Shown here piece by piece: positions 17,876 through 45,581 of a stretch of 64,000 nt of DNA (positions are counted from its first letter, which is position 1; every line of letters begins with the position of its first letter). The translations under genes were made by a program, and so were the position numbers. Source of the stretch: a virus; IMG/VR virus record IMGVR_UViG_3300045988_084596, positions 57,930 to 121,929 of that record; one strand, written 5' to 3'. The notes under the pieces are model-generated. The model ran no database searches. It had not been told where the DNA came from and saw nothing but the letters and a program-made list of their open reading frames with translations.

Positions 17876-18664
17876 TGATGTATTCTATCCACGTAAAATA
17901 TGGATACTACTATGCAATAATAGTAGAGAGTGCCTAAGAGGAAACTCTTAGAGTAGAGGCTGGCTAAAACGGCGAAGGCGAATACAGAACGCCGTGCTAA
18001 GTTTCTTTGGGCAGACTCATTTAAGTGGAATACACTATTTTTCATATATAATGAAAGGTGGTAGACTTAAATGAGAAAATATGATAAAGAGTGGCTTCAA
18101 GAATTATGTTCTTCAAGTTATTCTTATGCGGAAGTTTTAATTAAAGCTGGTCGTAAGATTGGCGGAGGCGCGCAACAAACCTTAAAAAAGAAGATTGTTG
18201 AGTATGGAATTGATGTTTCACACTTCACAGGGTAGAGATGGTATGATGCTCCAGGGAAAGAGTGTAATTTAAAGGGGCAAGATAGAGAAAAATATTCTCT
18301 GAACGAAGTTTTTGTGAAAGATAGTCCAGTTACTCAAAAGGTTCTTAGAGGTTATGTTGAAAGGCACAATGTTTTAGAATATAAGTGTCAACAATGCGGA
18401 TGTGACGGTCATTGGCAAGATGGAATAATTGCCTTAGAAATTGACCATATAGATGGAGATAACACCAATAATGAAAAAACTAATCTTCGCTATTTATGTC
18501 CAAATTGTCATGCTTTAACAGAAACTTACCGAGGAAGAAACAAAGCCCTAAAGAATAAATGTGTAGAGAGTATACACCAGCTACCTAAGTCTGAATAAGA
18601 TATGGTAAAGACGTACTCCAGACTACAACACAGAAATGTGGCTATGGTGACATAGAGTAGTAAG
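17876..18664 (+). mobile_element. group I intron in tRNA-Leu(TAA) carrying an HNH homing-endonuclease ORF
   Basis: Bounded by the tRNA-Leu exons. Contains ORF 18071-18598. Terminal G present. The intron RNA core was not modelled. Confidence 0.6.
18071..18598 (+). CDS. HNH homing endonuclease (intron-encoded), one in-frame TAG
   Basis: ATG 18071 after GAAAGGTGG. CQQCGC...HIDGD...NLRYLCPNCH HNH motif. The frame is continuous from 18071 through a TAG at ~18233 into track ORF 18314-18598. Confidence 0.7.
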
Positions 18665-18734: not shown

Positions 18735-19266
18735 GGGTCAGTAAAGTGCTAAAGTAGACACCCCGGTCTGTGTTAAATTCCTACTTAGGAGGATATTAAT
18801 GGTCATTACAAACAATCAGTAGAAAGGAAATGCTGGTCTATCTTTAGCAATAGGATACTTTGGTTCTAATGGATACACTGTATCAGTCCCACTGAATGAT
18901 ACTCAATGGTATGATTTAGTTATTGAAAAAGATGGAGTTTTCCAAACAGTTTAGTGCAAATTTACATCATCGAAAACTGGAGAAATTAATCTAAAATCCG
19001 CAGGTGGAACTAAAGGAAATGTTTATGATTCGATACTTAACCATCCTTTAGACTTGTTGTTTTGCGCTAATCAAGATATGAATATGTTTGTAATTCCAAT
19101 GAACGATTTGATTCAAGCTGGAAATGTAAAATCAATAACTTTGAGAACAACCAGTGCCCCAAATTGTAAATTGGATACCAGTAAATACTTAGTTCGAATC
19201 TAAGATTTAACTCCAAAAACCGGTGCTTTCGAGCTCGAGTGGGTGCGATTCCCTCCTGGCCCACCA
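18735..19266 (+). tRNA. candidate split tRNA (5' part ~18735-18775, 3' part ~19204-19266) interrupted by a ~430-nt insertion encoding a PD-(D/E)xK nuclease
   Basis: 3' end GTGGG-TGCGATT-CCCTC T arm, acceptor 3' strand CTGGCCC, A, CCA. Upstream GGGTCAG pairs with it (one G-U). Candidate anticodon stem CCGGT (18763) / ACCGG (19219). Type II-like variable region. Exact intron borders were not resolved. Confidence 0.35.
18799..19203 (+). CDS. PD-(D/E)xK-family nuclease (Hjc/Holliday-junction-resolvase-like), 2 in-frame TAG
   Basis: ATG 18799 after TAGGAGGATATTA. GNAGLSLAIGYF...YDLVIEKDG...Q-CKF matches the D...E-x-K nuclease core. Two in-frame TAG. Confidence 0.55.
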
Positions 19267-19295: not shown

Positions 19296-20417
19296 ATGAA
19301 TATTGTCCATACAGGAAATCGTTTTTAGGTATATGGTGACGATGTAAAAACTTATAAAGAGTTACCAATCGGAACCTATACAATCGGTTTCCATCCCCAA
19401 ATGGGAATTTGGCTTTCTGTTCATAATAATTTGCAGATTGGCGAAGAAAAAGTTTATGGCTCGCATAGTCATAAGGTAGAGAAAGTTTTCAACTCTTTCG
19501 ATAAGTCCGAGCGAAACTTTGGTATAATTCTTTCTGGTAAGAAAGGTATTGGCAAATCTCTTTTTGCAAGAATGATTGCGGATGCCGCGATCAAGCGAGA
19601 AATGCCAGTGATTGTAGTCGATTCTCCTATTCCTGGAATTAGTAATTTCCTCAGTTCCATTGAACAAGAAGTTGTTATTATCTTTGACGAGTTTGAAAAG
19701 ACTTTTGCCAGGAATGATGACGGCGATCCGCAGGTAGGACTTTTAAGTCTATTTGATGGGATTGATAATGGAAAGAAACTTTTTGTTATCACTTGTAACG
19801 ATACAAGAAAATTGAACGAATTTCTTATCAATCGCCCTGGTCGTTTTCACTATCATTTTGAGATTGGCTGTCCTACAGCGGATGAAGTGCGGGCATATAT
19901 GATGGATGCGCTTGGAAGCGGTATGGAAGAGGAAATTGAAAAGGTTGTTAAGTTGTCGCAGGTCGCGGACATTACTTATGATAGTCTAAGGGCTATTGCT
20001 TTTGATTTGAAACAGGGTTATCCTTTGGAGGAAACCTTAATGGACTTGAATATTAACTATGAGAGAGGCGCTCTCTTTGATGTTAATGTTCGTTTGACTA
20101 ATGGTTGGGTTATGACTGCATATAATTATAATCTCGATCTTTATGCCAAAGAAGTTCAGTGTCTTCGATTTAGAAAAGATAAGAATGATTTCTACCTTTC
20201 TTTTGATCCAGGAAAGATTAAATCTATGGATGGTACTCTAGTACTTATGGGTGTAGATGCTAATTTCTATTGTGATTTTGATGCTTTCGATTATGATTAC
20301 CCCACTGAGGAAGAGAGTGCAAAGGCTAGAAAGGAATTTAACGAAAAAGTAAGGGTTGAAAATGCAACCTTTACTAAGGTTTCAATTTATGGAGTCAATA
20401 AGTATATTGACCTTTAA
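19296..20417 (+). CDS. AAA+ ATPase (373 aa), one in-frame TAG near the N-terminus
   Basis: ATG 19296 after the consensus leader TAGGAAAGGAAGTAAATAG. Walker A GKKGIGKS, Walker B VIIFDEFE. The frame is continuous with track ORF 19401-20417 through a TAG at 19326. Confidence 0.65.
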
Positions 20418-20812: not shown

Positions 20813-21070
20813 ATGATTACTATTGGTAAAAATATAGATAATAAAGTTTTTTATGGTACAGTTCATTTTTTATGTGATTACCAAAGTGATGTTGCTAATC
20901 TCCCTAAAAACCGCAAGCCGGGCAGTTCAGCCTACGTAATTGAAAATGGAAATAGATATATTTTCAATTCTGATCATGAATGGGTGTTGTAGCACTCTGG
21001 TGGAGGCGGAGATTAGCCTCTTCCTCCAGAAGATACAACTATTATTTATGATGGCGGACTAATTGGCTAA
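20813..21070 (+). CDS. hypothetical small protein (85 aa), 2 in-frame TAG
   Basis: ATG 20813 after AAGAAAGGAGAATAAGT. Continuous to TAA 21068 if TAG is sense. Confidence 0.45.
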
Positions 21071-21084
21071 AGGAGGGAGTGACT

Positions 21085-21645
21085 TTGGCTGAAGTTGTTT
21101 ATAAAACAATATTTTAGTTCAAGCGAGGAACATCAGAGAAGTGGACCGAATTAAATCCAATTCTTCGTCAAGGTGAGCCGGGATTTGAAATAGATACTGG
21201 AAAGTTAAAAATTGGAGATGGAGCCACCGAGTGGAAATAGTTAAAATATATAAATAGTAGTTTGGTAAATGTTGATGTAGACAATCAATCTATTGTTATT
21301 GATGGAATTGGACAGATTTCATTAAAAGGATTTGCAGAAGCATCAACAGGGCAATCTATTAGAAAAAGAGAAGATGGCACATTAGAGTGGTATACTCCAA
21401 TATCTTAGGATAAAGTAATAGAAACTATCTCTATCGGAAACAAAGATTTGCCGGTTGAAGATAATAAAGTTACTATTCCGGCGGGAACAGAAGAAAATCT
21501 TGGTTTAATTAAGGGGAGTAGTTAGAATAACTAGATAAAAATACTTTCAGATGGAACCGGAGAAATTAATTCTGTAGGACTTGATAAAATAGTGGATGTT
21601 GAAGGTTTTACTTTAATATTAAACTGTGGGACAGCAGTAGACTAA
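21085..21645 (+). CDS. tail-fibre-like protein with hyaluronidase/tail-fibre N-terminal motif (186 aa), 5 in-frame TAG
   Basis: TTG start after AAAGGAGGGAG. Motif KRGTSEKWTELNPILRQGEPGFEIDTGKLKIGDGATEWK typical of phage tail-fibre N-termini. Readable only with TAG as sense. Confidence 0.55.
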
Positions 21646-21665
21646 AATAAGGAGGCATTTTAAAG

Positions 21666-22727
21666 ATGGCCAATGAATTAAAAACTAGAATCCAACTTAG
21701 ACATGATACCGAGGAAAATTGGACTTCAGTTAAGGACTCCTTTATTCCTCTCGTTGGAGAGGCTTGTCTTACCACTGATGGCGAGAATAAAGGAAAAGTA
21801 AAATATGGTGATGGAACAAGCACCTGGGGTTAGTTAGAATATTCTGGTGGAAAAGATATTGTAGAAGTTGATTCATCTATTGTAAAATTTGATGATGATT
21901 TTACATTTACCTATACTTTTGGTAAATATGCTCCTGGAGGAGATGGATCTGTTAATATTCCCGCGACTGGAAAAACATTAGATCAATTACTGCTAGATGC
22001 TTTTGCGGAAGAAAAAAATCCTACTATCACACAACCTTCTGTTAGTATTTCCTCTAGTCAAATGAAAGCATATGAAGTGGGCACTAATGTAACTCCAACT
22101 TATACTGCAACTTTAAATAAAGGATCTTATCAATATGGCCCCGATACTGGAATTACAGCAACCGGTTGGAGCGTTCAATTTGATGAAGAAACAAAAACAG
22201 AAGCTACTGGAACTTTCTCTGAAATTCAAGTTGAAGATGCTACTAATTTAAAGATTACAGCAACAGCTAATTATGAGAATGGAGCTATTCCTGTTACAAA
22301 TCTTGGTTCTGAATATGTAGAAGGATAGATTAAAGCTGGATCTAAGTCTAATAGCACAGGAGCTATTACTGGATATCGCTAGATTTTTTATGGAGTTAAT
22401 AATTCTACAAATCCTTTAACTAGCGCGATTATTCGTTCTTTAACAGCAAGCAATAAAGCGGCAGCCGCAATGACTATTAATAGCATTAAAGCAAAAAGTG
22501 ATACTAAGAGAATTATTATCGCAGTTCCTCAATCTTCTGGGCTTAAAGTTACCGCAGCTAATATTACTTCTAGTTTGAACGCAGATGTAACTTCTAGCTA
22601 TGTAAAGCAAGGACCAGTGCAAGTAGAAGGAGCAAATGGATTTACCGCGGTTCCTTATGATGTATTCGTTTATCAACCTGCTTCCATTGATCCAACTGAG
22701 GATCATAAGGTTGTAATTGGAAAGTAA
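21666..22727 (+). CDS. tail fibre protein (353 aa), 3 in-frame TAG
   Basis: ATG 21666 after AAGGAGG. N-terminal RIQLRHDTEENW...KYGDGTSTWG motif. One frame links track ORFs 22062-22328 and 22470-22727. Confidence 0.6.
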
Positions 22728-22744
22728 GGAAGGAGGAACAAATA

Positions 22745-23917
22745 ATGGCAGTAATTAACAAAGATATTGCATATATGGCGTTACCTCTGAGTATTCGTAG
22801 AGGAAATCCTTTCCCTATTGATGAATATTCAGTATGGTATGATATGGAAGAATTAACAACATATGCTCAATCTAGTCCTGTAGCATATGTTGGTTAGGTA
22901 GTTACCTTAGTTAATGAAGAAGAAAATACAGTTGAAGCGTATATGATTCAAAATGCTGCTGGCAATTTAATGAAATTGGCTTCAACTACTGCTTCTGGTG
23001 ATTTAACGAAAGATGTTTTAGAGCTTCAAGGAAAAGTTTCCGCATTAGAAACCTCTGTTGGTACCAAAGAAGAAGAAAGTTCAATAACAGCTTCTAATCT
23101 TTGGGCAGCCATTGAGGAAGTTAAAGCAGCTTATGAAGCAGCTGATAGTTCTATTAATGGAAAATTTAATGATTATTATAATAAAACAGAAGCAGATTCT
23201 AAGATTGACCAAAAAATTGCTACTGCAATAAGTTCAACTTATAAACCTGCTGGTTCCATTATGTTTAGTTTCCTTCCTACACTTGGAGCTGATCAAGAGG
23301 GAAAAGTATATAATATTATAGATGCTTTCACCACTACTGAAGACTTCGTTGAAGGAGCCGATAATAAATATCCAGCTGGAACTAATGTAGTATGTATTGA
23401 CACTGATGATGCTGGAACTTACAAATGGGATGTTCTTGCGGGATTTGTAGATTTAAGTGGATACGAAACTACAAGTAGTGTAGATACTAAGTTAGCTAAT
23501 AAAGTCGACAAAGTAGAAGGATCATCTTTAGTTCAAGACACTCTAATTGCTAAATTATAGGGTTTAGCAGAAATCAAAGGAGTTAGTGATGAATTAGAAA
23601 TCGATCCTGATGATAAAATTCTTGGTGTAAAAGCGATTGCGTAGGAGAAAATTACTGGTCTTCCCGCAGCTTTAGCAGAGAAGATTAAAAGTATAACCGT
23701 AGGAACTACTCCTCTTTAGGTTAGCAATGGCGCAGTTACTATTCCTATTGCTACAGCAGAAGCTCTCGGTGTAGTAAAAAGCACTAATGATGAAAATGGT
23801 GTTGCTATTACAGGCGATGGAACTATGATTGTCAATAATATAAATATAGAAAAAATTACTTAGACTCCTGGTACAGAGCTTATCTTAAATGGCGGAGATG
23901 CTACTGTTAGTGAATAA
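22745..23917 (+). CDS. tail fibre protein (390 aa), 5 in-frame TAG
   Basis: ATG 22745 after GGAAGGAGGAACAAATA. One frame through track ORF 22943-23560 to TAA 23915. Shares a ~90-aa module (SSTYKPAGS...KWDVLAGFVDLS) with the next gene. Confidence 0.55.
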
Positions 23918-23942
23918 AAATCAACTTGGAGGAAGATAAATA

Positions 23943-25280
23943 ATGGCTACAACTTTTAATACAAGAATCCAATTAAAATATGACACTTATGAAAATTGGA
24001 ATACCAATAACCCCACTCTCCTAAAAGGAGAAATGGCGGTTGTTGAAGTTCCTGTTGAAACTGGAGTTGCTCAAAATGAGCCTACCTATTTGTTAAAAAT
24101 CGGTGATGGTGAATCGGATTTTAAAACTTTAAAATGGGTAAGCGGGACGGCCGCAGATGTTTATACTTGGGCTAAAGCGGCAAGTAAACCAACTTATGCA
24201 GCGACTGAAATTACCGGACTTGAAGATTTTATCGGAGAAAAAATTCAAGATACCGATACACAATATTAGATTGTTAAAAATGGAGATATGGGCTTTAAGC
24301 TTCAATCTAGACCAAAAACTGGCGGATCTTGGACAGATGTAAGCACTATTGCTCTGACCGCTCCCACTTATAATTTAGTCGAAGGGACTACTAATGGTAC
24401 TGTAAAATTTGGAATTACTGGTTCTGAAAAAGAAGTAAAAGTTCATGGACTTGGATCAGCAGCTTATACTGAATCTAGCGCTTATGATGCAGCTGGTAGC
24501 GCAGATACAGCAAAAAGCGAAGCTATCGATGAAGCTGCTAGTGCCACCGATGAAAAAATTGCAGCTCTAAAAATCAATGAATATGCAAAAACCACAGAAG
24601 TAGATTCTAAAATTGGAGCTGCAAAAACAGAGCTAATTGGTGAAGGAAGTGGCTCTTCTACTACTATTAAAGGTGCTTATGATGAAGCTAAAACCTATAC
24701 TGATTAGCAAATTGCCGCTAGAATTTCCTCTACTTATAAAGCAGGAGGATCTGTTGCATTTGCTTCTCTGCCAGAACTAACTGCAACAGAAGAAGGAAAA
24801 GTTTATAACATTCTTGATAAATTCACTACTACAGACGATTTCGTAGAAGGTTCCGGAAAGAGCTATCCTGCTGGCACTAATATTGTTTGTATAGATGTAG
24901 GAGAAGAAGAATTTAAGTGGGATGTTTTAGCTGGAATGGTAGATCTTTCAGCATATGATACAGCAGAGACAACTCAGGGAAAAATTGATTCCGCTAAGCA
25001 AGAGGCCAAAAACTACGCAGATTCTAAAGTTAACGCTTTAGATAAAGAAGATTCAGCCGTAGAAAATCAATTTGTAACTGCGGTATCTGAAGTCGATGGT
25101 ATCATTAGCGTAACTCGTACTCAGCCTACCATGGAGAATATCAACGGGTTGCCTGCGGCTCTTGCTAAAAAAGCTAATGATGGAGATTTAGCACTCGTTG
25201 CTAAAAGTGGAAAGATTGATGATTTAACTTAGACTGCTACAATTATTTTTAATTGTGGAAGCTCTAGCACAGTAATGTAA
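23943..25280 (+). CDS. tail fibre protein (445 aa), 3 in-frame TAG
   Basis: ATG 23943 after GGAGGAAGATAAATA. N-terminal RIQLKYDTYENW...KIGDGESDFKTLKW motif. One frame links track ORFs 23943, 24288 and 24936. Confidence 0.6.
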
Positions 25281-26100: not shown

Positions 26101-26268
26101 ATGCGCTGGTTAGTGAATTATATTCGACAAATATTTTGTAAACACGATTTTGTTTTTGATGAAGGTTGGGCAGAAAAAACAAGTGATTCAGGATCTTTTC
26201 GCAAAGGGATAAAAGTTTCTTGCTATTGTAAGAAATGTTCTTATCATAAATCTTGGTGGAAGTATTGA
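26101..26268 (+). CDS. small Cys-rich protein (55 aa)
   Basis: AAAGGAGAAATATA then ATG. CKH...CYCKKCSYH cysteines. Confidence 0.4.
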   Translation: MRWLVNYIRQIFCKHDFVFDEGWAEKTSDSGSFRKGIKVSCYCKKCSYHKSWWKY

Positions 26269-26314
26269 CAATAAAAAATTTTTTTGATATAATATTTATA
26301 GAAAGTTGAAAGAT

Positions 26315-26641
26315 ATGAAAAACTGTTTGGATTGTAATAAATGTTGGGTTGTAAAAGACCCCGATCCAAAAGACGATACTTGTTTAGCTGCTTTCTGTAG
26401 CAAGTCTAAAACAAGAGGCATGAAATGCAATGAAATTTCATACCTAATGCCTTTAGGATATAATTCTGCGTTTGCAGAAAGTCCTCTTCCTGATGACCCA
26501 TGGATTACTGTTGCGGAACATTGGGGCACTCTTAGAGAAAAATGCACCGTTCCAGATTGGTGTCCGGGAATGGAAGAGAATGGAGAATACAGTTTGTTCA
26601 CAGATAAAACATCGGTTGATATTATGAAAGAGCGACAATAA
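26315..26641 (+). CDS. hypothetical Cys-rich protein (~108 aa)
   Basis: ATG 26315 after the consensus promoter/leader TGATATAATATTTATAGAAAGTTGAAAG. Confidence 0.5.
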   Translation: MKNCLDCNKCWVVKDPDPKDDTCLAAFCSKSKTRGMKCNEISYLMPLGYNSAFAESPLPDDPWITVAEHWGTLREKCTVPDWCPGMEENGEYSLFTDKTSVDIMKERQ

Positions 26642-26730: not shown

Positions 26731-26806
26731 TGCGGAGTAGCGTAATGGTTTAGCGCAGGGGTCTCTAAAACCTCGGGAGTGGGTTCGAATCCCACCTCCG
26801 CTGCCA
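26731..26806 (+). tRNA. amber suppressor tRNA (anticodon CTA), Gln-like
   Basis: D arm GCGT-AATGGTTTA-GCGC, anticodon stem GGGGT/ACCTC with loop CTCTAAA (CTA at 26765-26767), T arm GTGGG-TTCGAAT-CCCAC, acceptor 3' CTCCGCT, G73, CCA. U1·U72 mismatch. The 3' acceptor/discriminator resembles the two tRNA-Gln genes. Confidence 0.65.
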
Positions 26807-36061: not shown

Positions 36062-36340
36062 ATGCCAGGTCGCAGAACTTCAAAATATACAAAAGATCAG
36101 AACGCCTTGTTTCAAGGAGAAGTAATGGTAATTCTTGCTGATAGCGAAGAGGCTCTTACTATTGAGCAAATTCAGCAAAGATCAATTACATTAACAGGGT
36201 TAAGCCCTCAGAAGATGGCTCGTATTCTTTCTCATTTAATTGAAATGGGAAATGTAACAAAAGCAAAAAGTAAGAGCATGGGTAAAATGGTATATAAATC
36301 ATTGGCTGTAATGAGAAGGCAGGGATATGATGTTTATTAA
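36062..36340 (+). CDS. hypothetical protein (92 aa)
   Basis: ATG 36062 after AAGGAGG. The track ORF began earlier in the same frame. Confidence 0.5.
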   Translation: MPGRRTSKYTKDQNALFQGEVMVILADSEEALTIEQIQQRSITLTGLSPQKMARILSHLIEMGNVTKAKSKSMGKMVYKSLAVMRRQGYDVY

Positions 36341-36584
36341 TGTCATGAATGAAGATATTTTTGATGTTACTTTTAGTATCTATCTAGATAATCAAATTAT
36401 TCGACAATGGAGAATGCAGGCGCCGAGACCATTCATAGAGATTAAATTTATTCAAACTGTTCAACAAATTGCTTCTCAATCACAACCTATGAAGGTAATA
36501 GTGTCAAGAGAAGAGGTAATTTGGGATCAATTTGAACAGAAACACAAAGTTCTTCCTGTAACAATGGAGTTTCAAAATTATTAA
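36327..36584 (+). CDS. hypothetical protein (85 aa)
   Basis: Overlapping ORF. Confidence 0.4.
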   Translation: MMFINVMNEDIFDVTFSIYLDNQIIRQWRMQAPRPFIEIKFIQTVQQIASQSQPMKVIVSREEVIWDQFEQKHKVLPVTMEFQNY

Positions 36585-36601
36585 GAGGGAGATTGTTAGT
36601 A

Positions 36602-37417
36602 ATGAAATATTTTATCGACTTTGAGGCTACACAATTTTCGCAAGAAATTATTTCTATCGGATGTATTAGAGAGGATGGTCAGACTCTTTATGCACTCGTA
36701 GCCCCAAAGAAAGGTAAAATTACTCCTTTCATTACTAATCTTACTGGTATCACAGCAGAGATGATTGATAGTGCTATGTCTGCCGATACCGTATTCTCTA
36801 AGTTCTATGATTGGTTGTTTGAAAATCTAGATGATGCACCAGAATTTCTTGTATGGGGAAATTCTGATGGAGATTTTATTCGACATACTTCTCGTCATGC
36901 GACCGCACTTAAAGCAAAAATGGCGTTGGGATATATTTGTGGCAATTATCGAGATTATGCCAAGATGTGCAAAAAAGAGCTGAAATGGGAATGTAATCAC
37001 AGTCTTTTGAATACTCTCAGAAGATTTAATCCTTCTGCTGAACAAAATCACAACTCCTTAGATGATGCAGTTCTACTAAAGGAAGTATATGATTTTATAA
37101 GTAACACATCAAGAGAAACACTTGATGAAATGTTCGCTGATTGGAAGAGGAAAGCAACTAATAAAGAAAGTGTTTTTATTCCTAAATGGAATAAAGCTGG
37201 TTATCCTGCTGGAACTATTTGCATTGTTAATTCTAAGAAGCGGGCTACAAATACTTTTACTAGTGTTGAAGCTGCTGCACTGTGGCTTAAAGAAAATAAA
37301 TGCGAGTCTGACACCTATGAGCATTTCAATCTTGAAAATACGATAAAAAATATCGAGAAAGCTATCAAGGGTGGTAACCACTACTACGGAATGGGTTGGA
37401 GGAGAGTAAATGGCTAA
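36602..37417 (+). CDS. DEDDh-family 3'-5' exonuclease (DnaQ-like)
   Basis: ATG 36602 after GAGGGAG. FIDFEATQF (Exo I motif) and later H...D motif. Confidence 0.55.
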   Translation: MKYFIDFEATQFSQEIISIGCIREDGQTLYALVAPKKGKITPFITNLTGITAEMIDSAMSADTVFSKFYDWLFENLDDAPEFLVWGNSDGDFIRHTSRHATALKAKMALGYICGNYRDYAKMCKKELKWECNHSLLNTLRRFNPSAEQNHNSLDDAVLLKEVYDFISNTSRETLDEMFADWKRKATNKESVFIPKWNKAGYPAGTICIVNSKKRATNTFTSVEAAALWLKENKCESDTYEHFNLENTIKNIEKAIKGGNHYYGMGWRRVNG

Positions 37418-37748
37418 ATATAATTTATACGCAGGCCTGGGCGGAGGATTTGGCGGGTATCAATATCATTGCACAGAAGATTATGACTCTAGAGAAGACG
37501 CCGAGGAAGCCGCTCGAGAGCTAGCGATTGAAGAGTACCAATCTTATGAGGGTATGCACGGAATTTTGTCCGAGGGAGACATTCGAGAGCAATATTGCGA
37601 AGAAAATGAACTGACCGAAGATGAACTGACCCAAGAAGATGAAGATGAAATCTCTGGTATGTATCAAGAGGAAATTGAAGGTTGGCTTTCCTATTTGGTA
37701 ACTACTGTTGAGGAAGATCCCGACCATGATAGATATTATGAATGGTAA
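37410..37748 (+). CDS. hypothetical highly acidic protein (112 aa)
   Basis: ORF with GGAGGAG RBS; Glu/Asp-rich. Confidence 0.45.
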   Translation: MAKYNLYAGLGGGFGGYQYHCTEDYDSREDAEEAARELAIEEYQSYEGMHGILSEGDIREQYCEENELTEDELTQEDEDEISGMYQEEIEGWLSYLVTTVEEDPDHDRYYEW

Positions 37749-37767
37749 GAAAGGAAAGTGATATAGT

Positions 37768-39039
37768 ATGGCGTATTTTGGTCTTGTAACTAAATTGCAG
37801 AATGTGCGGAAGGACGAGAATAGTGACCGCCTTTATCTTGCCGATTGTTTCAATGAAGGTGTAATTATTGGCTCTGATATGCAGACTGGTCAGGAGGTAT
37901 TGTATCTACCTACTGACGGTGAGATTGAGAGATGGTTCGGGAATGAATTCTGCCTTTTTCGCAAGAATGAGGATGGAACCCCTCAGGGCGGATATATCGA
38001 GAATAATGGACACATCAGAGCTATTAAACTTCGCGGCAATCAGAGTTCTGGTGTTGTAATTGCTCTTGATAAAGTTTATGAGAAATTCGGAAATCAGAAC
38101 TGGAAAGATGGAGATAAGGTAAACACTATCAACGACAAAGAGTTTTGTCGTAAGTACATTCCTAAGCGCAAAACTCCTACAGGTCAGGTTAAGACTTCTT
38201 ATAAAGGTCGTAAAGCTGAGGGAATTACATATCCTGAGTTCTCTATGCACACTGATACTGAACAGTTGGCATATAATCTTGACAAATTCCGCCCCGGTGA
38301 TATTCTCAATATGACCCTTAAAATGCACGGAACTTCTCAGCGCTCTATGAATACTTATGCTGAGCTTCCTAATGGTTTCTTCCGTCGCCTCTTCCATATG
38401 AAAAAGCGCACTAAGCAGGCTTATGTTCTTGGAACTCGTCGCTGTGTAGTCACAGAGAACTCTCAGGGATTTTATGGAAATGACCAGTTTCGTATGCCAC
38501 ATCATGAAGCGTTGAAACCTTACCTTGAGCCAGGAATGGAAGTTTTCTACGAAGTAGTGGGTTATTACGGCCCCAATGAAGAGAACACCATTATGCCTAT
38601 CGGAGATAATACCAAAGTCAATGATAAGGCTTTTGTAAAGCAGTTTGGTAAGCGTTCTATTTTCTCTTATGGATGTGAGCCTGGTTAGAGCAAGATGTAT
38701 ATTTATCGTATTACCTCTGAAAATGGAGAAAGAGAGTGGACTCCTGACGAGATTACTGAATGGTGTAATGCTCATGGCTTTAATCGAGTTCCTGTGATCG
38801 AGGATTTTGAATTTACTACCGTAGAGGATTTGCAGGAGCGCATTAACAAATACTTTGAAGATCTCACTGATCCGATCGGCCGCACTCATGTAAAAGAAGG
38901 CGTTGTTATCCGAATTGTAAATCGTCGTACTTTTACAGCTTTTAAGTCTAAGACTTATGAATTTAAAGTCATCGAGGGCATTATCAAGGAAAACGAAATC
39001 GCTCCAGATATGGAAGAGGCTCAGGAGGAAGAGATTTAA
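37768..39039 (+). CDS. RNA ligase (Rnl2 family) fused to an N-terminal tRNA-binding OB-fold domain; one in-frame TAG
   Basis: N-terminal VTKLQNVRKDENSDRLYLADCFNEG resembles the tRNA-binding-domain motif (V.KH.NADKLYV..VD.G). LKMHGTS matches the Rnl2 adenylation motif KxHGxN. Track ORFs 37768-38688 and 38695-39039 are one frame joined by a TAG at 38689. Confidence 0.6.
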
Positions 39040-39284
39040 TGTTAGGAATTATTTTTGGAGCGGCGGGTATGGTCTTTGTTTATTATACGGTTCAAACCAT
39101 TTTTGGTCCAGTTGATGAAGAGTTTTATCTTGGATATTATACTGGTATTGGAGCTACATTTCTTTGCGTACTAATAAACGCAATTCTATAACCAATTAAA
39201 TTTTAAATTAAAGGAGAGTATATTCTCCTTTAATTTTATAATAAAATATTATATAATATTTATATAAAAGAAAGGAGTTATGAT

Positions 39285-39821
39285 ATGTATAGACTTCTTG
39301 TGATTGTAGATGCGCAGAATGATTTTATTACTGGCTCTCTGGGATCTAAGACAGCGGATGCCGCGGTTCCTAATATCGTTGATCTAATTAAACGATTCTG
39401 TTGGGAGGAAATTATTTGTACCATGGATACCCATGACAATGATTACTTTGATACTTTGGAAGGAAAAAGACTTCCCATTAAACATTGTATCAAAGCAAGT
39501 GTGGGCTGGTGTATGGATTCCAGAATTGTTGTTGCGTTGAATAACAAATTTAACTATTATGAAAAAGATACCTTCGGTAGTACTGATATGGTCAATGAAG
39601 TATACGATTCTCTAAAAATGAAGAATCCAGAGGAAGTAGAAATTCATATCTGTGGATTTTGTACCGATATTTGCGTTATGGCTAATGCAGTTATGCTTCG
39701 TGCGGCGATGCCAAATACTAGAATTATCGTCCATTCTAGCGCGTGTGCAGGAGTAACTCCAGAATCGCATGAAGCAGCGCTAACTATTTTCAAAGCCCAG
39801 CAGATTGATGTGGAGGATTAA
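39285..39821 (+). CDS. isochorismatase-family hydrolase (nicotinamidase PncA-like)
   Basis: LLVIVDAQNDF N-terminus and Cys-containing ICGFCTDICV block are typical of cysteine hydrolases/nicotinamidases. Confidence 0.55.
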   Translation: MYRLLVIVDAQNDFITGSLGSKTADAAVPNIVDLIKRFCWEEIICTMDTHDNDYFDTLEGKRLPIKHCIKASVGWCMDSRIVVALNNKFNYYEKDTFGSTDMVNEVYDSLKMKNPEEVEIHICGFCTDICVMANAVMLRAAMPNTRIIVHSSACAGVTPESHEAALTIFKAQQIDVED

Positions 39822-40638
39822 AAAAATGATTAGTCTAATTAATACACGCAGTCATTGGACAGACGTAATTGAACAAAATCATTTTCCAGATGGTACGCTG
39901 CACATTAACATGCCTCCCAACTACTTCGATTATGATACGATTGTTTGGGAGTACGAGAATGATGCAGAATTATTTACTCTCATTTGTGTTAAGGGACATT
40001 TCGAAGATTTCCCTGTAAACCTAGATATGCCATATATTCCTCATGCGAGGATGGATCGGGTTCAAGAACTTGAAGATGTATTTACTCTAAAATACTTCTG
40101 TCAAGTAATTAATAGCCTTCATTTTGATAAAGTTATTGTACGCGATGCTCATTCTAATGTATCGTTAGCTCTACTTGATAGAGTTATTGATCTTAGTCCA
40201 GTTGGAGAAATCAAAGAGGCTATTAAGAGAACTGAGGAATATGAAGGAGAAATTCCTATCCTATTTTTCCCAGATGAAGGAGCGATGAAGAGATATTCTG
40301 CTCCACCCATTAATTTTCCTTACGCTTTTGGAATTAAGAAAAGGGATTGGTCTACTGGAAAAATTCTTGGTTTGCAGTTAATAAATGAGGAAATCGTTAA
40401 AGAGAGAAATGTCTTAATTGTAGACGATATTTGTTCTCGCGGTGGAACTTTTTATCACGCAGCAAACGCCCTTAAAGAAGCTGGCGCAAAGAATATTTAT
40501 CTGTATGTAACTCATGCAGAGCATACCATGATTGAGGGCGATATGTATAATCAAGATATTGTGAAGAAAATCTTCACTTCTGATAGCATCTTCAAGACAG
40601 AGTGGGATATTAGAGGAAAGGTAGAGATTGTAAGATGA
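39805..40638 (+). CDS. PRPP-synthetase-like type I phosphoribosyltransferase (candidate ADP-ribose pyrophosphate synthetase)
   Basis: PRPP-binding loop VLIVDDICSRGGT. ~277 aa, Prs-like size and order. Confidence 0.5.
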   Translation: MMWRIKKMISLINTRSHWTDVIEQNHFPDGTLHINMPPNYFDYDTIVWEYENDAELFTLICVKGHFEDFPVNLDMPYIPHARMDRVQELEDVFTLKYFCQVINSLHFDKVIVRDAHSNVSLALLDRVIDLSPVGEIKEAIKRTEEYEGEIPILFFPDEGAMKRYSAPPINFPYAFGIKKRDWSTGKILGLQLINEEIVKERNVLIVDDICSRGGTFYHAANALKEAGAKNIYLYVTHAEHTMIEGDMYNQDIVKKIFTSDSIFKTEWDIRGKVEIVR

Positions 40639-41084
40639 CTATTGAGAAACTTCAAGAGTTAAAGATTATGGCTCTTAAAAATGGAAATACAAATACAAAG
40701 AGGGTACTTTCTGACATGATTGATGCGTGTCAGAAAGCAGCCATTACTCCAAAAGGAAGAGTTGAATTAACTGAACAACTAGTTGACGAAACCCTTATCA
40801 AATATCAAAAGACAGTACAAGAAATGATTGATACCTGTCCTGCTAGTTATCCTGAAAAACTGCATCAATATCAAGAGGATATGAAGGTAGTAAAGATGTG
40901 TGCCCCTCAGCTTATTACTGATAAGGCAGAAATTGAAACAAAAGTAAGAGAGATCGCTGGAACCGCAGGTATTGATCTCCTCAAAGCAAACCGTGGTGTG
41001 CTTATGAAGTCTGTTTCTATGGAGCTTAAAGGTAAGGCAGATATGAAGATTGTAAGTGCTGTTGTTGGAGGGTTGTTAAAGTGA
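40635..41084 (+). CDS. YqeY/GatB-C-terminal-like domain protein
   Basis: Weak remembered similarity of the N-terminal region to the YqeY family. Low certainty. Confidence 0.3.
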   Translation: MTIEKLQELKIMALKNGNTNTKRVLSDMIDACQKAAITPKGRVELTEQLVDETLIKYQKTVQEMIDTCPASYPEKLHQYQEDMKVVKMCAPQLITDKAEIETKVREIAGTAGIDLLKANRGVLMKSVSMELKGKADMKIVSAVVGGLLK

Positions 41085-41449
41085 ATCTATCTTTAGAGCA
41101 GACTCTCGCATCTATTCTTCAGTCGCTCGCAGATTTTTTTGGAGTAACAACTCAAACTATTATGGAAAACGCTCCCATGTGGCTGGCCAAATATGGTTGG
41201 TATGTAACTATTAAAGATTTAGGATTAACTATCTTTATAGGAGGATTTATTAGTATTGCTCTTATTGGTGGATTATTTTTTATATTTTATATAATGCTTG
41301 ATGCAGATTATAAAAAATGGCACTCAGCTATGTTTGTAACGATAGCAATACTTGCAATTATTATAACAATTTTTATTCCAATTATTACTTGTATCATCGC
41401 TCCAGAGTATGTTGGAATTGAAGCACTACTTAGATTGCTTCAAAGTTGA
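41081..41449 (+). CDS. membrane protein (122 aa, 2-3 TM)
   Basis: Hydrophobic stretches IFIGGFISIALIGGLFFIFYIML and IAILAIIITIFIPIITCIIA. Followed by terminator 41452-41478. Confidence 0.5.
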   Translation: MNLSLEQTLASILQSLADFFGVTTQTIMENAPMWLAKYGWYVTIKDLGLTIFIGGFISIALIGGLFFIFYIMLDADYKKWHSAMFVTIAILAIIITIFIPIITCIIAPEYVGIEALLRLLQS

Positions 41450-41451
41450 TA

Positions 41452-41478
41452 AAAGCCCTCATAAAGAGGGTTTTTTAT
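41452..41478 (+). terminator. intrinsic terminator
   Basis: AAGCCCTC-ATAAA-GAGGGTTTTTTATTTTT. Confidence 0.65.
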
Positions 41479-41532
41479 TTTTATAAAAATATATGATATA
41501 ATATATTTAAGAAATAAGGAAAGGAAGATTTT

Positions 41533-43122
41533 ATGAGTTTCTTTGATGTAGCTCCAATGTTTGCCGCTGACTACTACAAAGTTGGTCATGCTATTAAGAT
41601 GCAGCCGAAGTCTGCTTCTATGGTTTATTCTACTTGGACAGCTCGCAGTTATAAGCATCATCCAAATTGCCCTAAGACAGTGGTCTTTGGTCATCAATAT
41701 ACCATCCAGAAACTACTTGAATTTTGGCAGACAGAGTTCTTTGATCAGTCAGTTGAGCTTCTTGAACAGGAGTGGAATCATGTAATTAAAAGTACTTTCC
41801 ATCCTGATTACGCGGATTTTACCAAGTTTAAAGAATTGCATAAACTTGGTTATTTACCTATTTCTATCATGGGAGTTCCAGAGGGTACGCTTCTTCCCGT
41901 CGGGATTCCAGATCATGTAATTTTTTCTAATCATCAAAATTTTGCGTGGCTTCCGCAATTTATCGAAGATCAGTGGAGCGCTAATAACTGGCTCCCCTCG
42001 ACTTCTGCCACTACCGCTTTTTATCGCCGCAAGTTGATTGAGCCTTATGTCAAGACTAGTTGCGACGATATGTCTGCGCTTCCGCATATGTGCGGAGACT
42101 TTTCTCTGCGCGGGCATACAAGCCTTGAAGCGGGTTATATCTCAGGTGCTGCCCATGCTCTTTCTTTTGATAGAACTGCAACCATTGGTTCTAACCTTCT
42201 CCTTGAAAAATACTATGGAGCAGATCTTGAGAATAATCCTCCCATGATGGGAACTCCTTCTCTTGAGCACTCTGTTGTTGAACAAGGTGTAGCTTGGATG
42301 AAGCAGAAGATTACTAATGGAGATTTAACTGAAACTGAGCGTTATCTTTTCTCTAAGGCCGCTTTTGATAATTGGGATATTAACCTTATTGCAGAAATGC
42401 TTTTTATTAATTATCTTTGCACAGAAGTGCAACCTACAGGAACTATGACCTATGTATCTGATACATATGATTATTGGGGTATTGTATCTAAGGTTCTTCC
42501 TATGTTGCACGATGTTATTGCAGCAAGAGATGGATGTTTCTCCGTTCGACCTGATAGCGGAGATCCTGTAAAGATTATCTGCGGCGACCCAGATGCTGTA
42601 CCCGGTTCTCCTGAGTTTATAGGAACTTTAAATCTTCTAAAAGAAATCTTTGGCGGTGAATTGAATACTAAAGGATATTTTATTCTTCCTTCTTATATTC
42701 GTATGATTTATGGAGATGCCATTACTCCAGAGATTACTGAAAAAGTTTGCTCTTGGTGCGTTAGAAATAATATCTCAGTATCCAATCTATGTTTTGGAAT
42801 TGGAGCTTATACTTATCAGTATGTAACTCGTGATACTAGAGGCTATGCTATTAAAGCTACAGATTGTATCCTCGGCAATGATGAAATTCAGATTTATAAA
42901 ATGCCTAAAACCGACCCTGGGAAAAAGTCTCCTCGTGGATGTGTTGCAATTTTTAAAGAGGAGAATGGCGATTATTCTTTAGTAGAAAATCTTACTCTTG
43001 AAGAATCCATTGGATATAAGAACAATGTAATGAAATTTAAAGTCAAGAATGGAAGTTTCTGTACGGAGAGCGTAGAGACTATCGAAACTATTAAAGAGAG
43101 ATTGATGGGAGAAGTTCTATGA
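41533..43122 (+). CDS. nicotinamide phosphoribosyltransferase family protein (NAMPT/NadV-like; possibly nicotinamide ADPR transferase)
   Basis: 529 aa. N-terminal FDVAPMFAADYYKVGH and later GTMTYVSDTYD blocks match NAMPT family proteins as I recall them. Confidence 0.6.
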   Translation: MSFFDVAPMFAADYYKVGHAIKMQPKSASMVYSTWTARSYKHHPNCPKTVVFGHQYTIQKLLEFWQTEFFDQSVELLEQEWNHVIKSTFHPDYADFTKFKELHKLGYLPISIMGVPEGTLLPVGIPDHVIFSNHQNFAWLPQFIEDQWSANNWLPSTSATTAFYRRKLIEPYVKTSCDDMSALPHMCGDFSLRGHTSLEAGYISGAAHALSFDRTATIGSNLLLEKYYGADLENNPPMMGTPSLEHSVVEQGVAWMKQKITNGDLTETERYLFSKAAFDNWDINLIAEMLFINYLCTEVQPTGTMTYVSDTYDYWGIVSKVLPMLHDVIAARDGCFSVRPDSGDPVKIICGDPDAVPGSPEFIGTLNLLKEIFGGELNTKGYFILPSYIRMIYGDAITPEITEKVCSWCVRNNISVSNLCFGIGAYTYQYVTRDTRGYAIKATDCILGNDEIQIYKMPKTDPGKKSPRGCVAIFKEENGDYSLVENLTLEESIGYKNNVMKFKVKNGSFCTESVETIETIKERLMGEVL

Positions 43123-43844: not shown

Positions 43845-43872
43845 AGAGAGCTTTACAGCTCTCTTTATTTTT
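43845..43872 (+). terminator. intrinsic terminator
   Basis: AGAGAGC-TTTAC-AGCTCTCT then TTATTTTTT. Confidence 0.6.
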
Positions 43873-43924
43873 TATAATATTTATGATATAATATTTATAT
43901 AATATAAGAAAGGGAGTTTTATTT

Positions 43925-44656: not shown

Positions 44657-44657
44657 T

Positions 44658-45503: not shown

Positions 45504-45539
45504 GACGCATAGAATCTTTTGAAATTATTATAAAAATAT

Positions 45540-45581
45540 AATATAATATATATAGAAAGTTAAGGAATGGAGGAAAGCAGT
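45540..45581 (+). promoter_or_regulatory. consensus promoter + leader
   Basis: TATAATATAATATATATAGAAAGTTAAGGAATGGAGGAAAGCAGT then ATG. Confidence 0.5.

What the first reader, a model, noticed from the sequence alone, without database searches (positions are those of the whole stretch)
26731..26806. Amber (TAG) to glutamine recoding: in-frame TAGs align with Gln codons in paralogs, and the phage encodes a Gln-like suppressor tRNA(CUA)
Direct evidence from paralogous repeats: LTG[TAG]RFG (5976 gene) versus LTG[CAA]KFG (same gene, repeat 2, and 8077), and WKC[TAG]CDCGN (5976) versus WKC[CAA]CDCGN (27915). TAG therefore sits where Gln is encoded elsewhere. At least 20 genes become continuous, motif-bearing frames only if TAG is sense (Ung, HNH, LAGLIDADG, GIY-YIG, tail fibres, amidase, RNA ligase, ThyX and others). 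A tRNA with anticodon loop CTCTAAA (anticodon CTA) and otherwise canonical arms lies at 26731-26806. Its acceptor 3' end and G73 resemble the phage's two tRNA-Gln genes (17312, 17389), and its weak 1:72 pair is a known GlnRS identity feature. Standard-code gene callers will fragment or miss a large share of this genome.
Basis: partly seen in the sequence, partly recalled or inferred. Interest (0 to 1): 0.8.

Follow-up and report, generated by a model that had tools for sequence, protein, structure and literature searches.

The report
Phage reads TAG as glutamine
This common ~148 kb human-gut phage reads the stop codon TAG as glutamine and carries its own TAG-reading tRNA; the finding is correct, but it is one more example of a recoding already described in gut phages.

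Summary
A canonical tRNA with anticodon CUA lies at 26731-26806 (ARAGORN; Rfam 59.8 bits). About 19 protein genes are continuous and carry Pfam domains only if TAG is read as sense. ORF coverage of the + strand rises from 66% to 84%. None of 58 curated genes ends in TAG.

TAG means Gln. At 19 TAG sites in two gene families, Gln is the best-fitting residue by about 19 log units over Lys. The best-conserved sites are Q in 87-95% of diverse homologues, and Q in two solved standard-code proteins (PlyL, phi29 gp13). In related phages, 49 of the 72 non-TAG codons opposite window TAGs are CAA or CAG.

TAG supplies 33-41% of Gln-type codons in homing-endonuclease, tail-fibre and lysis genes, against about 1% in other window genes.

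The tRNA is conserved in synteny in relatives. Its acceptor stem matches the phage tRNA-Gln(UUG). Its overall body is equally Trp-like, so calling it Gln-like is only partly supported. Who charges it is inferred, not shown.

This is the known code-15 recoding of gut phages, in a lineage with no close relative in the GenBank phage collection searched. Public protein sets for its relatives are already translated with TAG=Q.

The parts
26731..26806 (+). Suppressor tRNA, anticodon CUA. It has a canonical cloverleaf, a U1.U72 mismatch, G73 and an encoded CCA.
   Evidence: ARAGORN; Rfam RF00005 at 59.8 bits; fold. It is conserved in the synteny Ser(uga)-Sup(cua)-Leu(caa)-Cys(gca) in L006, L010, L015, L018, L020, L023, L028 and L034.
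26265..26293 (+). Perfect sigma-70 consensus promoter (TTGACA-17-TATAAT with TG) upstream of ORF 26306-26641 and the tRNA. It is a possible driver of suppressor expression by host RNA polymerase.
   Evidence: Pattern scan only; its function is inferred.
17312..17385 (+). Phage tRNA-Gln(UUG). Its acceptor stem is nearly identical to that of the suppressor.
   Evidence: acceptor stem plus N73 match 12/15, the best of 28 tRNAs.
17389..17463 (+). Phage tRNA-Gln(CUG), with G73.
13657..13731 (+). Phage tRNA-Trp(CCA). It has the highest whole-length identity to the suppressor. Their anticodon loops are CUCCAAA and CUCUAAA.
3555..4268 (+). Uracil-DNA glycosylase, 1 in-frame TAG (3660).
   Evidence: Pfam UDG. 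The TAG aligns with Q in Coxiella UDG 3tr7, but the site is variable in other UDGs.
5976..6923 (+). Homing-endonuclease-like protein with a DUF2726 nuclease domain, 10 in-frame TAG.
   Evidence: In homologues, LTG[TAG]RFG aligns with Q in 73/115 and 78/119 sequences.
8077..8598 (+). HNH endonuclease, 4 TAG.
14934..15335 (+). LAGLIDADG endonuclease, 3 TAG.
18071..18598 (+). HNH endonuclease, 1 TAG.
18799..19203 (+). PD-(D/E)XK endonuclease, 2 TAG.
19296..20417 (+). AAA ATPase, 1 TAG.
20813..25280 (+). Tail-fibre block: one 85-aa ORF plus four fibre genes (21079-21645, 21666-22727, 22745-23917, 23943-25280), 18 TAG in all.
   Evidence: Pfam Mtd_N. The TAGs are conserved or replaced by CAG/CAA in relatives.
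27915..28817 (+). DUF2726-type endonuclease paralogue, 4 TAG. The last TAG is directly followed by TAA.
37768..39039 (+). RNA ligase, 1 TAG.
46689..47435 (+). DUF2726-type endonuclease paralogue, 5 TAG.
49659..50513 (+). NAGPA + SPOR cell-wall enzyme, 2 TAG.
50516..51925 (+). Lysin (Phage_lysozyme2 + Amidase_2 + SLH), 9 TAG. This is the main test case for the meaning of TAG.
59160..60071 (+). GIY-YIG endonuclease, 8 TAG.
60348..60974 (+). ThyX, 1 TAG. The catalytic domain continues past it.
40632..41084 (+). YqeY-like protein, related to the tRNA-Gln-binding tail of GatB. A link to charging of the suppressor is speculative.
   Evidence: Pfam YqeY, E = 1.9e-8. Also present in relative L001. Background on the domain: PMC1865053 (abstract).

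Best explanation
The window belongs to a ~148 kb tailed phage of human-gut Firmicutes that uses a code-15-type genetic code. TAA and TGA terminate, and TAG is a sense codon for glutamine.

Decoding is done by the phage's own tRNA(CUA) at 26731-26806. This tRNA most likely arose from the phage tRNA-Gln(UUG) lineage, because the acceptor stems match. Its anticodon arm is the type shared by all tRNAs that read U-starting codons.

A host enzyme most likely charges it with Gln. That would be GlnRS, for which U35, G73, G10 and an open 1:72 pair are favourable, or ND-GluRS followed by GatCAB. This step is inferred, not shown.

TAG is very unevenly distributed. It makes up a third or more of Gln-type codons in homing-endonuclease, tail-fibre and lysis genes, and also occurs in some replication genes of a near-identical relative. 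It is almost absent from the NAD-salvage, RNA-repair, gyrase and ligase genes and from the upstream small genes.

The likely consequence is that TAG-free genes can be translated by the uninfected host's standard machinery. TAG-bearing genes give full-length protein only once the suppressor tRNA has accumulated. This would be a translational timer or safety catch, as proposed for other recoded phages.
For: **TAG is sense**
- Pfam domains run across TAGs in about 19 genes.
- + strand ORF coverage rises from 66% to 84%.
- None of 58 window genes stops at TAG (44 TAA, 14 TGA). None does in the flanking genes of relatives either.
- TAGs are spread evenly along genes, and their +4 context matches that of Gln codons.
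- TAGs at lysin sites 40 and 89 are conserved as TAG in orthologues only 64% identical.

**TAG is Gln**
- Lysin against 150 diverse cluster representatives: Q at 48/55, 34/55, 136/143 and 137/144 at the four best-conserved sites. Pooled counts are Q 385, K 69, W 0.
- PlyL (1yb0) and phi29 gp13 (3csr) have Q at the aligned sites.
- Endonuclease family: Q is the plurality at 5 of 10 sites, pooled Q 292 against K 140.
- Summed log-likelihood over the 19 columns: Q -36.4, K -55.6, W -100.7.
- Codon level: opposite window TAGs, relatives carry CAA 34 and CAG 15 out of 72 non-TAG codons; the next most frequent is CGT with 3.

**The tRNA**
- Found by ARAGORN and Rfam.
- Conserved in synteny; differences are confined to position 1, the D-loop and the variable loop.
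- Acceptor stem matches tRNA-Gln(UUG) at 12/15.
- By the E. coli identity set in PMC9976931 it has G73, G2-C71, G10, U35 and A37. The same review records that an amber-suppressing tRNA-Trp is charged with Gln.

**Bias between gene classes**
- TAG/(TAG+CAA+CAG) is 66/174 in endonuclease, tail and lysis genes, against 4/309 elsewhere (Fisher p = 1e-28).

**Precedent**
- bioRxiv 10.1101/2021.08.26.457843; PMC9523058 (abstract); PMC10607447.
Against: - There is no protein-level evidence for this phage.
- Some database homologues may themselves come from recoded phages stored with TAG=Q. That makes part of the column counts circular. The two PDB comparators, the CAA/CAG codon exchanges and the near-invariant Q columns across 140+ diverse proteins are not affected.
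- Several TAG sites fall in variable columns: K, N or E in homologues, R in ThyX, S/V/R/A in UDGs.
- The tRNA lacks G3-C70 and U38 of the E. coli Gln identity set, and has the A9, G4-C69 and G5-C68 of tRNA-Trp. Sequence alone therefore does not fix its charging.
- The early/late split is not clean. DnaB, RecJ-like and helicase genes of a near-identical relative carry TAGs. Four of the window genes outside the TAG-rich classes (AAA ATPase, UDG, RNA ligase, ThyX) have one each.
- No release factor or aminoacyl-tRNA synthetase gene was found in the 64 kb window or in about 20 kb of flanks. How RF1 competition is handled is unknown.
Confidence: 0.88

Rival explanations
1. TAG is sense but encodes another amino acid: Lys, Glu or Trp. 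Trp would follow if the tRNA is a tRNA-Trp derivative still recognised by TrpRS.
For: - Whole-length identity of the suppressor is highest to tRNA-Trp (71%), and the anticodon loops differ by one base.
- It has A9, G4-C69, G5-C68 and G73 of the bacterial Trp identity set.
- Lys is the second most frequent residue at TAG columns, and is the commoner residue at the WxC?C motif.
Against: - W is 0 of about 680 aligned residues in lysin columns and 4 in endonuclease columns.
- Log-likelihood is Q -36.4, K -55.6, W -100.7.
- Codon exchanges in relatives go to CAA/CAG, not AAA/AAG or TGG.
- C35, the central TrpRS determinant, is replaced by U35, the central GlnRS determinant. The tRNA-Trp amber suppressor of E. 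coli accepts Gln (PMC9976931).
- The shared anticodon arm GGUCUnnAAAACC also occurs in the Ser(UGA) and Cys(GCA) tRNAs. It marks readers of U-starting codons, not ancestry.
Confidence: 0.04
2. The in-frame TAGs are genuine stops. Under this reading the genes are pseudogenes or are made as fragments, and the tRNA(CUA) is incidental.
For: Many of the TAG-rich genes are selfish homing endonucleases, a class that often decays.
Against: - Essential late genes (tail fibres, lysins) are affected.
- Homology and Pfam domains continue past every TAG.
- TAGs are conserved or swapped for Gln codons in orthologues at 64-97% identity.
- The phage is extremely widespread as 143-149 kb contigs.
- No gene uses TAG as its terminator.
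Confidence: 0.01
3. TAG encodes pyrrolysine, which is ARAGORN's label for the tRNA.
For: The anticodon is CUA.
Against: - The tRNA has a normal D-loop with GG, a GGUUCGAAUCC T-arm, a 5-bp anticodon stem and a 5-nt variable loop. These are unlike tRNA-Pyl as I know it from the literature.
- No PylS or PylBCD-like domain occurs in any window ORF scanned.
- TAG columns are Gln, not Lys-like.
Confidence: 0.01
4. This rival concerns function only. The uneven TAG distribution would be a by-product, not a timer. Once TAG equals Gln, C-to-T drift turns CAG into TAG wherever it is tolerated, and selection removes it only from genes that must be translated before the tRNA is present.
For: - In TAG-rich genes CAG has almost vanished (CAA 97, CAG 11, TAG 66), against CAA 200, CAG 105, TAG 4 in the rest. 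This fits CAG-to-TAG transitions.
- TAG context and position look like those of any sense codon.
- Replication genes of a relative also carry TAGs.
Against: - Gln-type codons including TAG are more frequent in TAG-rich genes (43.6 per 1000) than elsewhere (27.9 per 1000). Without TAG they are equal, at 27.0 and 27.6. This hints that TAGs were added at tolerant sites rather than only replacing Gln codons. Protein composition differences could also explain it.
- The same gene classes are preferentially recoded in unrelated phage clades.
Confidence: 0.3

Closest known systems
Code-15 (TAG to Gln) recoded gut phages: crAss-like, Lak, and the Agate, Garnet, Amethyst and Topaz clades (Borges et al., bioRxiv 10.1101/2021.08.26.457843). 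Mass-spectrometry validation in crAss-like phages: PMC9523058.
   Same: - In-frame TAG aligns with Gln, and the phage encodes a tRNA(CUA).
- No phage synthetase was found, so charging is presumed to be by the host.
- Lysis, structural and intron or homing-endonuclease genes are preferentially recoded, with variable use in replication genes.
   Different: - Clade membership could not be tested, because no reference genomes of those clades are held here.
- There is no close relative in the GenBank phage collection searched: GyrA at most 35% and DUF2828 at most 40% identity.
- The Agate lineage analysed in detail there was TGA-recoded.
- Here the heaviest TAG users are seven free-standing endonuclease genes.
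phAss-1 / proposed Phassvirus (PMC10607447).
   Same: A human-gut Caudoviricetes phage of 136 kb with 36 tRNAs. TAG lies in 28% of its ORFs, re-annotated with table 15, and no aminoacyl-tRNA synthetase was found.
   Different: - phAss-1 has three tRNA(CUA) genes, against one in this window.
- No nucleotide similarity to phAss-1 was picked up when 28800-33300 was searched against the phage collection, so this is a different lineage.
E. coli amber suppressors that insert Gln: supE (tRNA-Gln with anticodon CUA) and su+7 (tRNA-Trp with anticodon CUA, charged with Gln).
   Same: It has anticodon CUA with U35, G73 and a weak first pair. Its mix of Gln-type and Trp-type identity elements resembles the tRNA-Trp amber suppressor case that ends up with Gln (PMC9976931; the names supE and su+7 are from my own knowledge).
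   Different: - Those are single-mutation suppressors in a standard-code cell that compete with RF1 at genuine stops.
- Here the tRNA is a conserved phage gene serving a codon that is never used as a stop.
- 1:72 is a true mismatch (U.U, or C.U in L010) rather than U1-A72, and 3:70 is C-G.

Membership tests
Phage with TAG-to-Gln recoding (translation table 15 type) | In-frame TAG inside conserved genes, with homology continuing across it | tested here: met
   Pfam domains and full-length homologues span the TAGs in about 19 genes.
Phage with TAG-to-Gln recoding (translation table 15 type) | TAG positions align with Gln in homologues | tested here: met
   Q is best by 19 log units over 19 columns. 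PDB comparators have Q. CAA/CAG make up 49 of 72 non-TAG codons in relatives.
Phage with TAG-to-Gln recoding (translation table 15 type) | TAG is not used as a terminator; TAA and TGA are | tested here: met
   0 of 58 window genes end in TAG (44 TAA, 14 TGA). The same holds in flanking genes of relatives. Only about 84 of ~148 kb was seen.
Phage with TAG-to-Gln recoding (translation table 15 type) | A suppressor tRNA with anticodon CUA is encoded by the phage | tested here: met
   conserved in relatives.
Phage with TAG-to-Gln recoding (translation table 15 type) | Gln found at TAG positions in the proteins themselves | not testable with these tools
   This needs metaproteomics, as was done for crAss-like phages in PMC9523058.
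Phage with TAG-to-Gln recoding (translation table 15 type) | The host uses the standard code | not testable with these tools
   The host is unknown. Hints point to Firmicutes: an SLH domain in the lysin, the best phage homologues coming from Bacillus, Enterococcus and Listeria phages, and a relative binned in a Eubacterium MAG. The large set of TAG-free genes is indirect support.
tRNA-Gln identity (E. coli set: G73, U1-A72, G2-C71, G3-C70, G10, U34, U35, G36, A37, U38; PMC9976931) | G73, G2-C71, G10, U35 and A37 | tested here: met
   Read from the sequence TGCGGAGTAG...CTCTAAA...CTCCGCTGCCA.
tRNA-Gln identity (E. coli set: G73, U1-A72, G2-C71, G3-C70, G10, U34, U35, G36, A37, U38; PMC9976931) | U1-A72 weak first pair | tested here: inconclusive
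   U1 is present but faces U72, giving a mismatch. L010 has C1.U72. The phage's own tRNA-Gln genes have A1-U72. An open first pair should suit GlnRS, but that is inference.
tRNA-Gln identity (E. coli set: G73, U1-A72, G2-C71, G3-C70, G10, U34, U35, G36, A37, U38; PMC9976931) | G3-C70, G36 and U38 | tested here: not met
   The tRNA has C3-G70, as does the phage tRNA-Gln(UUG). A36 is forced by the amber anticodon. Position 38 is A. E. coli rules may not hold in the unknown host.
tRNA-Pyl | Atypical tRNA-Pyl architecture (small D-loop without GG, 3-nt variable loop, elongated anticodon stem) and pylS/pylBCD genes | tested here: not met
   The tRNA fits the canonical tRNA model end to end. No Pyl genes were found among the scanned ORFs.
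Agate clade of Borges et al. | Terminase phylogeny placing the phage in that clade | not tested
   No terminase lies in the window, and no reference sequences of the clade are available here.

The most novel reading that the evidence does not exclude
The suppressor would be a purpose-built duplicate of the phage's tRNA-Gln(UUG), not a generic amber suppressor. It keeps that tRNA's acceptor stem and has a deliberately unpaired 1:72 position (U.U or C.U). Its anticodon arm has been converted to the type used for U-starting codons. Charging would be helped by the phage's own YqeY-like protein, a homologue of the tRNA-Gln-binding tail of GatB. Together these would make a self-contained code-switch module that times homing endonucleases, tail fibres and lysins.
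Probability: 0.12. Interest if true: 0.55.

Novelty: new member of a known kind. Interest (0 to 1): 0.3.

Why it matters
**Practical.** About a third of the genes in this very common gut phage are broken by standard-code annotation. These include all of its tail fibres and lysins, so host-range or lysin mining with table 11 would miss them.

**Biological.** It adds a clean, abundant Firmicutes-phage example to the set of TAG=Gln phages. The split between TAG-free and TAG-rich genes is very sharp, with a 40-fold difference in TAG use. There is a single, well-conserved suppressor tRNA whose mixed Gln/Trp identity features could be tested directly for how host synthetases are recruited.

It does not change what is known about phage recoding.

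Tried and rejected
- **Representative search with X at TAG sites.** I used the 97%-identical database protein P0001 instead.
- **Close homologue alignment.** The first alignment of the 120 closest lysin homologues gave Q at most sites. I discounted it as partly circular once the loci showed those proteins are stored with TAG already translated as Q. I replaced it with diverse representatives, PDB comparators and codon-level comparison.
- **tRNA ancestry.** Whole-tRNA identity and a comparison with Trp and Gln tRNAs from other phage contigs did not resolve the origin of the suppressor (0.63 against 0.57). Only the acceptor stem was informative.
- **Single-TAG genes.** The ThyX and UDG TAG sites fall in variable columns and say little.
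- **Codon context.** The +4 and -1 context of TAG showed no signal.
- **Named relatives.** Searches of the GenBank phage collection for a named relative found none close. Cluster look-up gave no names.
- **GTDB genomes.** An exact search for this tRNA found nothing. A looser pattern found four MAG contigs.
- **Code-change genes.** I looked for release-factor or synthetase genes in the window and in 20 kb of flanks of relatives and found none. The remaining ~65 kb of the genome could not be reached.
- **TGA or TAA recoding.** Rejected on coverage and ORF statistics.

Full report
**1. The observation**

ARAGORN finds 29 tRNA genes, all on the + strand between 7378 and 27837. One, at 26731-26806, has anticodon CUA and is labelled 'Pyl' from the anticodon alone. 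Rfam's tRNA model matches it end to end at 59.8 bits, and 1:72 is the only non-standard pair. It folds as a cloverleaf and encodes its own CCA. Its sequence is TGCGGAGTAGCGTAATGGTTTAGCGCAGGGGTCTCTAAAACCTCGGGAGTGGGTTCGAATCCCACCTCCGCTGCCA. This gives U1.U72, G73 and the anticodon loop CUCUAAA.

Every gene family it named is confirmed by Pfam once TAG is read through: UDG, two HNH, LAGLIDADG, GIY-YIG, PD-(D/E)XK, three DUF2726-type endonucleases, four Mtd_N-type tail-fibre genes, NAGPA+SPOR, a lysozyme+amidase+SLH lysin, RNA ligase, ThyX and an AAA ATPase.

**2. TAG is a sense codon**

- Greedy non-overlapping ORFs cover 66% of the + strand under the standard code. Coverage is 84% if TAG is sense, but only 69% if TGA is sense.
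- In a curated set of 58 genes, 44 end in TAA, 14 in TGA and none in TAG.
- The 41 genes with no internal TAG also never end in TAG. That has probability about 0.001 if TAG were a stop in 15% of genes.
- The 70 in-frame TAGs are spread along the genes rather than clustered at ends. Their following base is distributed like that of CAA/CAG codons.
- Lysin orthologues at only 64% identity keep TAG at two sites and align over the whole length. Pseudogenisation is therefore excluded.

**3. TAG means glutamine**

The closest database homologues turned out to be stored already translated with TAG=Q. Their loci 'do not translate to the query' under table 11, and the codons at those positions are TAG. 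I therefore did not rely on them and used four other lines of evidence.

(a) The lysin 50516-51925 has 9 TAGs. I compared it with the 150 best representatives of 50%-identity clusters, which have many different architectures. The four best-conserved sites are Q in 48/55, 34/55, 136/143 and 137/144 sequences. Pooled counts are Q 385, K 69, E 35 and W 0.

(b) Two solved proteins from standard-code phages have Q at the aligned position. They are PlyL of the Bacillus anthracis prophage LambdaBa02 (1yb0, site 274) and phi29 gp13 (3csr, site 40).

(c) The endonuclease 5976-6923 has 10 TAGs. Against 120 homologues, the motif LTG[TAG]RFG is Q in 73/115 and 78/119 sequences. Pooled counts are Q 292 and K 140.

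(d) Codon-level comparison with related phage loci: opposite window TAGs the relatives have TAG 149 times. Otherwise they have CAA 34 and CAG 15 out of 72 non-TAG codons, and the next most frequent codon is CGT with 3.

A simple column log-likelihood over the 19 sites gives Q -36.4, K -55.6, E -65.6 and W -100.7. The single TAGs in ThyX and UDG fall in variable columns and are uninformative.

It is selective for the WxC?C motif, where Lys is the usual residue.

**4. The tRNA**

It is conserved, in the order Ser(UGA)-Sup(CUA)-Leu(CAA)-Cys(GCA), in seven IMG/VR contigs and in a 147,780-bp contig binned with an uncultured Eubacterium MAG. Changes occur only at position 1 (U or C, both unpaired with U72), in the D-loop and in the variable loop.

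Is it Gln-like? Whole-length identity is in fact highest to the phage tRNA-Trp (71%). It is 68% to tRNA-Gln(UUG) and 54% to tRNA-Gln(CUG).

The anticodon arm GGUCUnnAAAACC is shared with the Trp(CCA), Ser(UGA) and Cys(GCA) tRNAs, that is, with readers of U-starting codons. It therefore says nothing about ancestry. Outside that arm Trp and Gln(UUG) tie at 0.71, and a wider comparison did not resolve it.

The acceptor stem is specific. Stem plus discriminator match tRNA-Gln(UUG) at 12/15, the best of 28 tRNAs (mean 5.1, sd 2.5), against 6/15 for Trp.

Against the E. coli identity sets tabulated in PMC9976931:
- Of the Gln set it has G73, G2-C71, G10, U35 and A37. It lacks G3-C70 and U38.
- Of the Trp set it has A9, G4-C69 and G5-C68. 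It lacks C35.

[quoted passage not shown] A mixed Gln/Trp body with U35 is thus exactly the kind of tRNA that ends up carrying Gln.

It is not a tRNA-Pyl, because its architecture is fully canonical. No pyl genes were seen.

Which enzyme charges it is inference: GlnRS, or ND-GluRS plus GatCAB. No synthetase or release factor is encoded in the window or in 20 kb of flanks of relatives.

**5. Where the TAGs are**

| Gene class | TAG / (TAG+CAA+CAG) |
|---|---|
| Homing-endonuclease genes | 0.41 |
| Tail-fibre genes | 0.34 |
| Two lysis enzymes | 0.33 |
| All other window genes | 4 of 309 |

The difference is significant (Fisher p = 1e-28). The 'other' genes are NAD salvage, RNA repair, Thg1, gyrase A and B, DNA ligase, PhoH, the MVP-like and DUF2828 proteins, and small upstream genes.

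In the TAG-rich genes CAG is almost gone (CAA 97, CAG 11, TAG 66, against 200, 105 and 4 elsewhere). This is as expected if many TAGs arose from CAG by C-to-T change.

In a near-identical relative the replication genes just beyond the window also carry TAGs: RecJ-like 9, DnaB 3, helicase 2. The split is therefore better described as 'immediate-early and auxiliary genes are TAG-free' than as 'only late genes are recoded'.

A perfect sigma-70 consensus promoter lies at 26265-26293, upstream of a small ORF and the tRNA. This is compatible with early transcription by the host polymerase, but it is only a pattern match.

**6. Comparison with what is known**

This is the phenomenon described by Borges et al. 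(bioRxiv 10.1101/2021.08.26.457843). That work reports:
- TAG-to-Gln recoding in several gut phage clades.
- Suppressor tRNAs in 35-40% of them, and rare phage synthetases or release factors.
- Preferential recoding of lysis, structural and intron-endonuclease genes, with variable use in replication genes.

The recoding was validated by mass spectrometry for crAss-like phages (PMC9523058, abstract). It was found again in phAss-1 (PMC10607447).

The present lineage has no close relative in the GenBank phage collection searched. It is nonetheless very common in human-gut assemblies as 143-149 kb contigs. It carries SPbeta-like replication genes (YorF, YorH, DnaB, a PolIII-alpha-type polymerase) and looks like a Firmicutes phage. 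It is a new member of a known kind.

**7. Verdict**

- The tRNA's 'Gln-likeness' is only partly supported.
- The charging mechanism and the regulatory role are inferred.
- Interest is modest.

Noticed in passing
window 14520-14850 (+): A phage-encoded tmRNA (Rfam RF00023, 70.9 bits, E = 1.5e-25) sits inside the tRNA array; ARAGORN missed it. Read by eye, the tag ORF is ATKLNDNDYFSSNIAA followed by TGA. A LAGLIDADG endonuclease gene starts right after it.
   Followed up: partly
window 17636-17755 (+): A 120-nt match to the full tRNA model (50.9 bits) has 58 nt where the 11-nt anticodon region should be, so it is an interrupted or intron-bearing tRNA. No CCA is encoded and the anticodon was not determined. 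tRNA-Asn and tRNA-Tyr are the isotypes missing from the array.
   Followed up: partly
window 8616-8672 (+): A partial tRNA match (33 bits, model positions 8-63), possibly a tRNA remnant next to the HNH gene at 8077-8598.
   Followed up: no
window 28854-33230 (+): A major-vault-protein-like gene (MVP shoulder domain E = 6e-17, plus vault repeats; 813 aa) lies next to a DUF2828/DUF7788 protein. That protein is 39% identical to a Bacillus phage Tsamsa protein annotated as RNA-binding. Both genes are TAG-free. The pairing is unusual for a phage.
   Followed up: partly
window 34259-46651 (+): A large TAG-free block combines RNA/tRNA repair genes (RlaP, three metallophosphatases, RNase T, RNA ligase, Thg1, AAA_33 kinase) with NAD salvage genes (PncA-like, PRPP-synthase-like, NAPRT, NadE) and a YqeY-like protein.
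   Followed up: partly
window 27751-27837 (+): The 'tRNA-Cys(GCA)' is 87 nt long with a long variable arm and U73. Relatives L006, L010 and L034 have a 75-77-nt version at the same place.
   Followed up: no
window 7516-7589, 8810-8886, 27557-27633 (+): Three of the four tRNAs with Leu anticodons (CAA, UAG, CAA) are 74-77 nt and lack the long variable arm typical of bacterial tRNA-Leu. Only Leu(GAG) at 9044-9130 has it. Their charging identity is unclear.
   Followed up: no
L038 10572-20486 (a near-identical relative, downstream of the window's end): The replication genes there also contain in-frame TAG (RecJ-like 9, DnaB 3, AAA_24 2, helicase 2). A second Phage_lysozyme2 gene has none. No gene ends in TAG.
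   Followed up: partly
L034 (CALCFD010000051.1, 147,780 bp): A whole-genome-sized relative (92% nucleotide identity around the tRNA) is binned in an 'uncultured Eubacterium sp.' MAG. This is either a weak host hint or a binning artefact.
   Followed up: partly
L040 20201-20359: A 52-aa ORF in the tRNA region of a relative has a weak Pfam hit to ArfA (alternative ribosome-rescue factor). With the tmRNA, this would be a second ribosome-rescue element.
   Followed up: no
window 28812-28817: The endonuclease gene 27915-28817 ends ...TAG TAA. The TAG could be a last Gln codon or a relic stop backed up by TAA.
   Followed up: no
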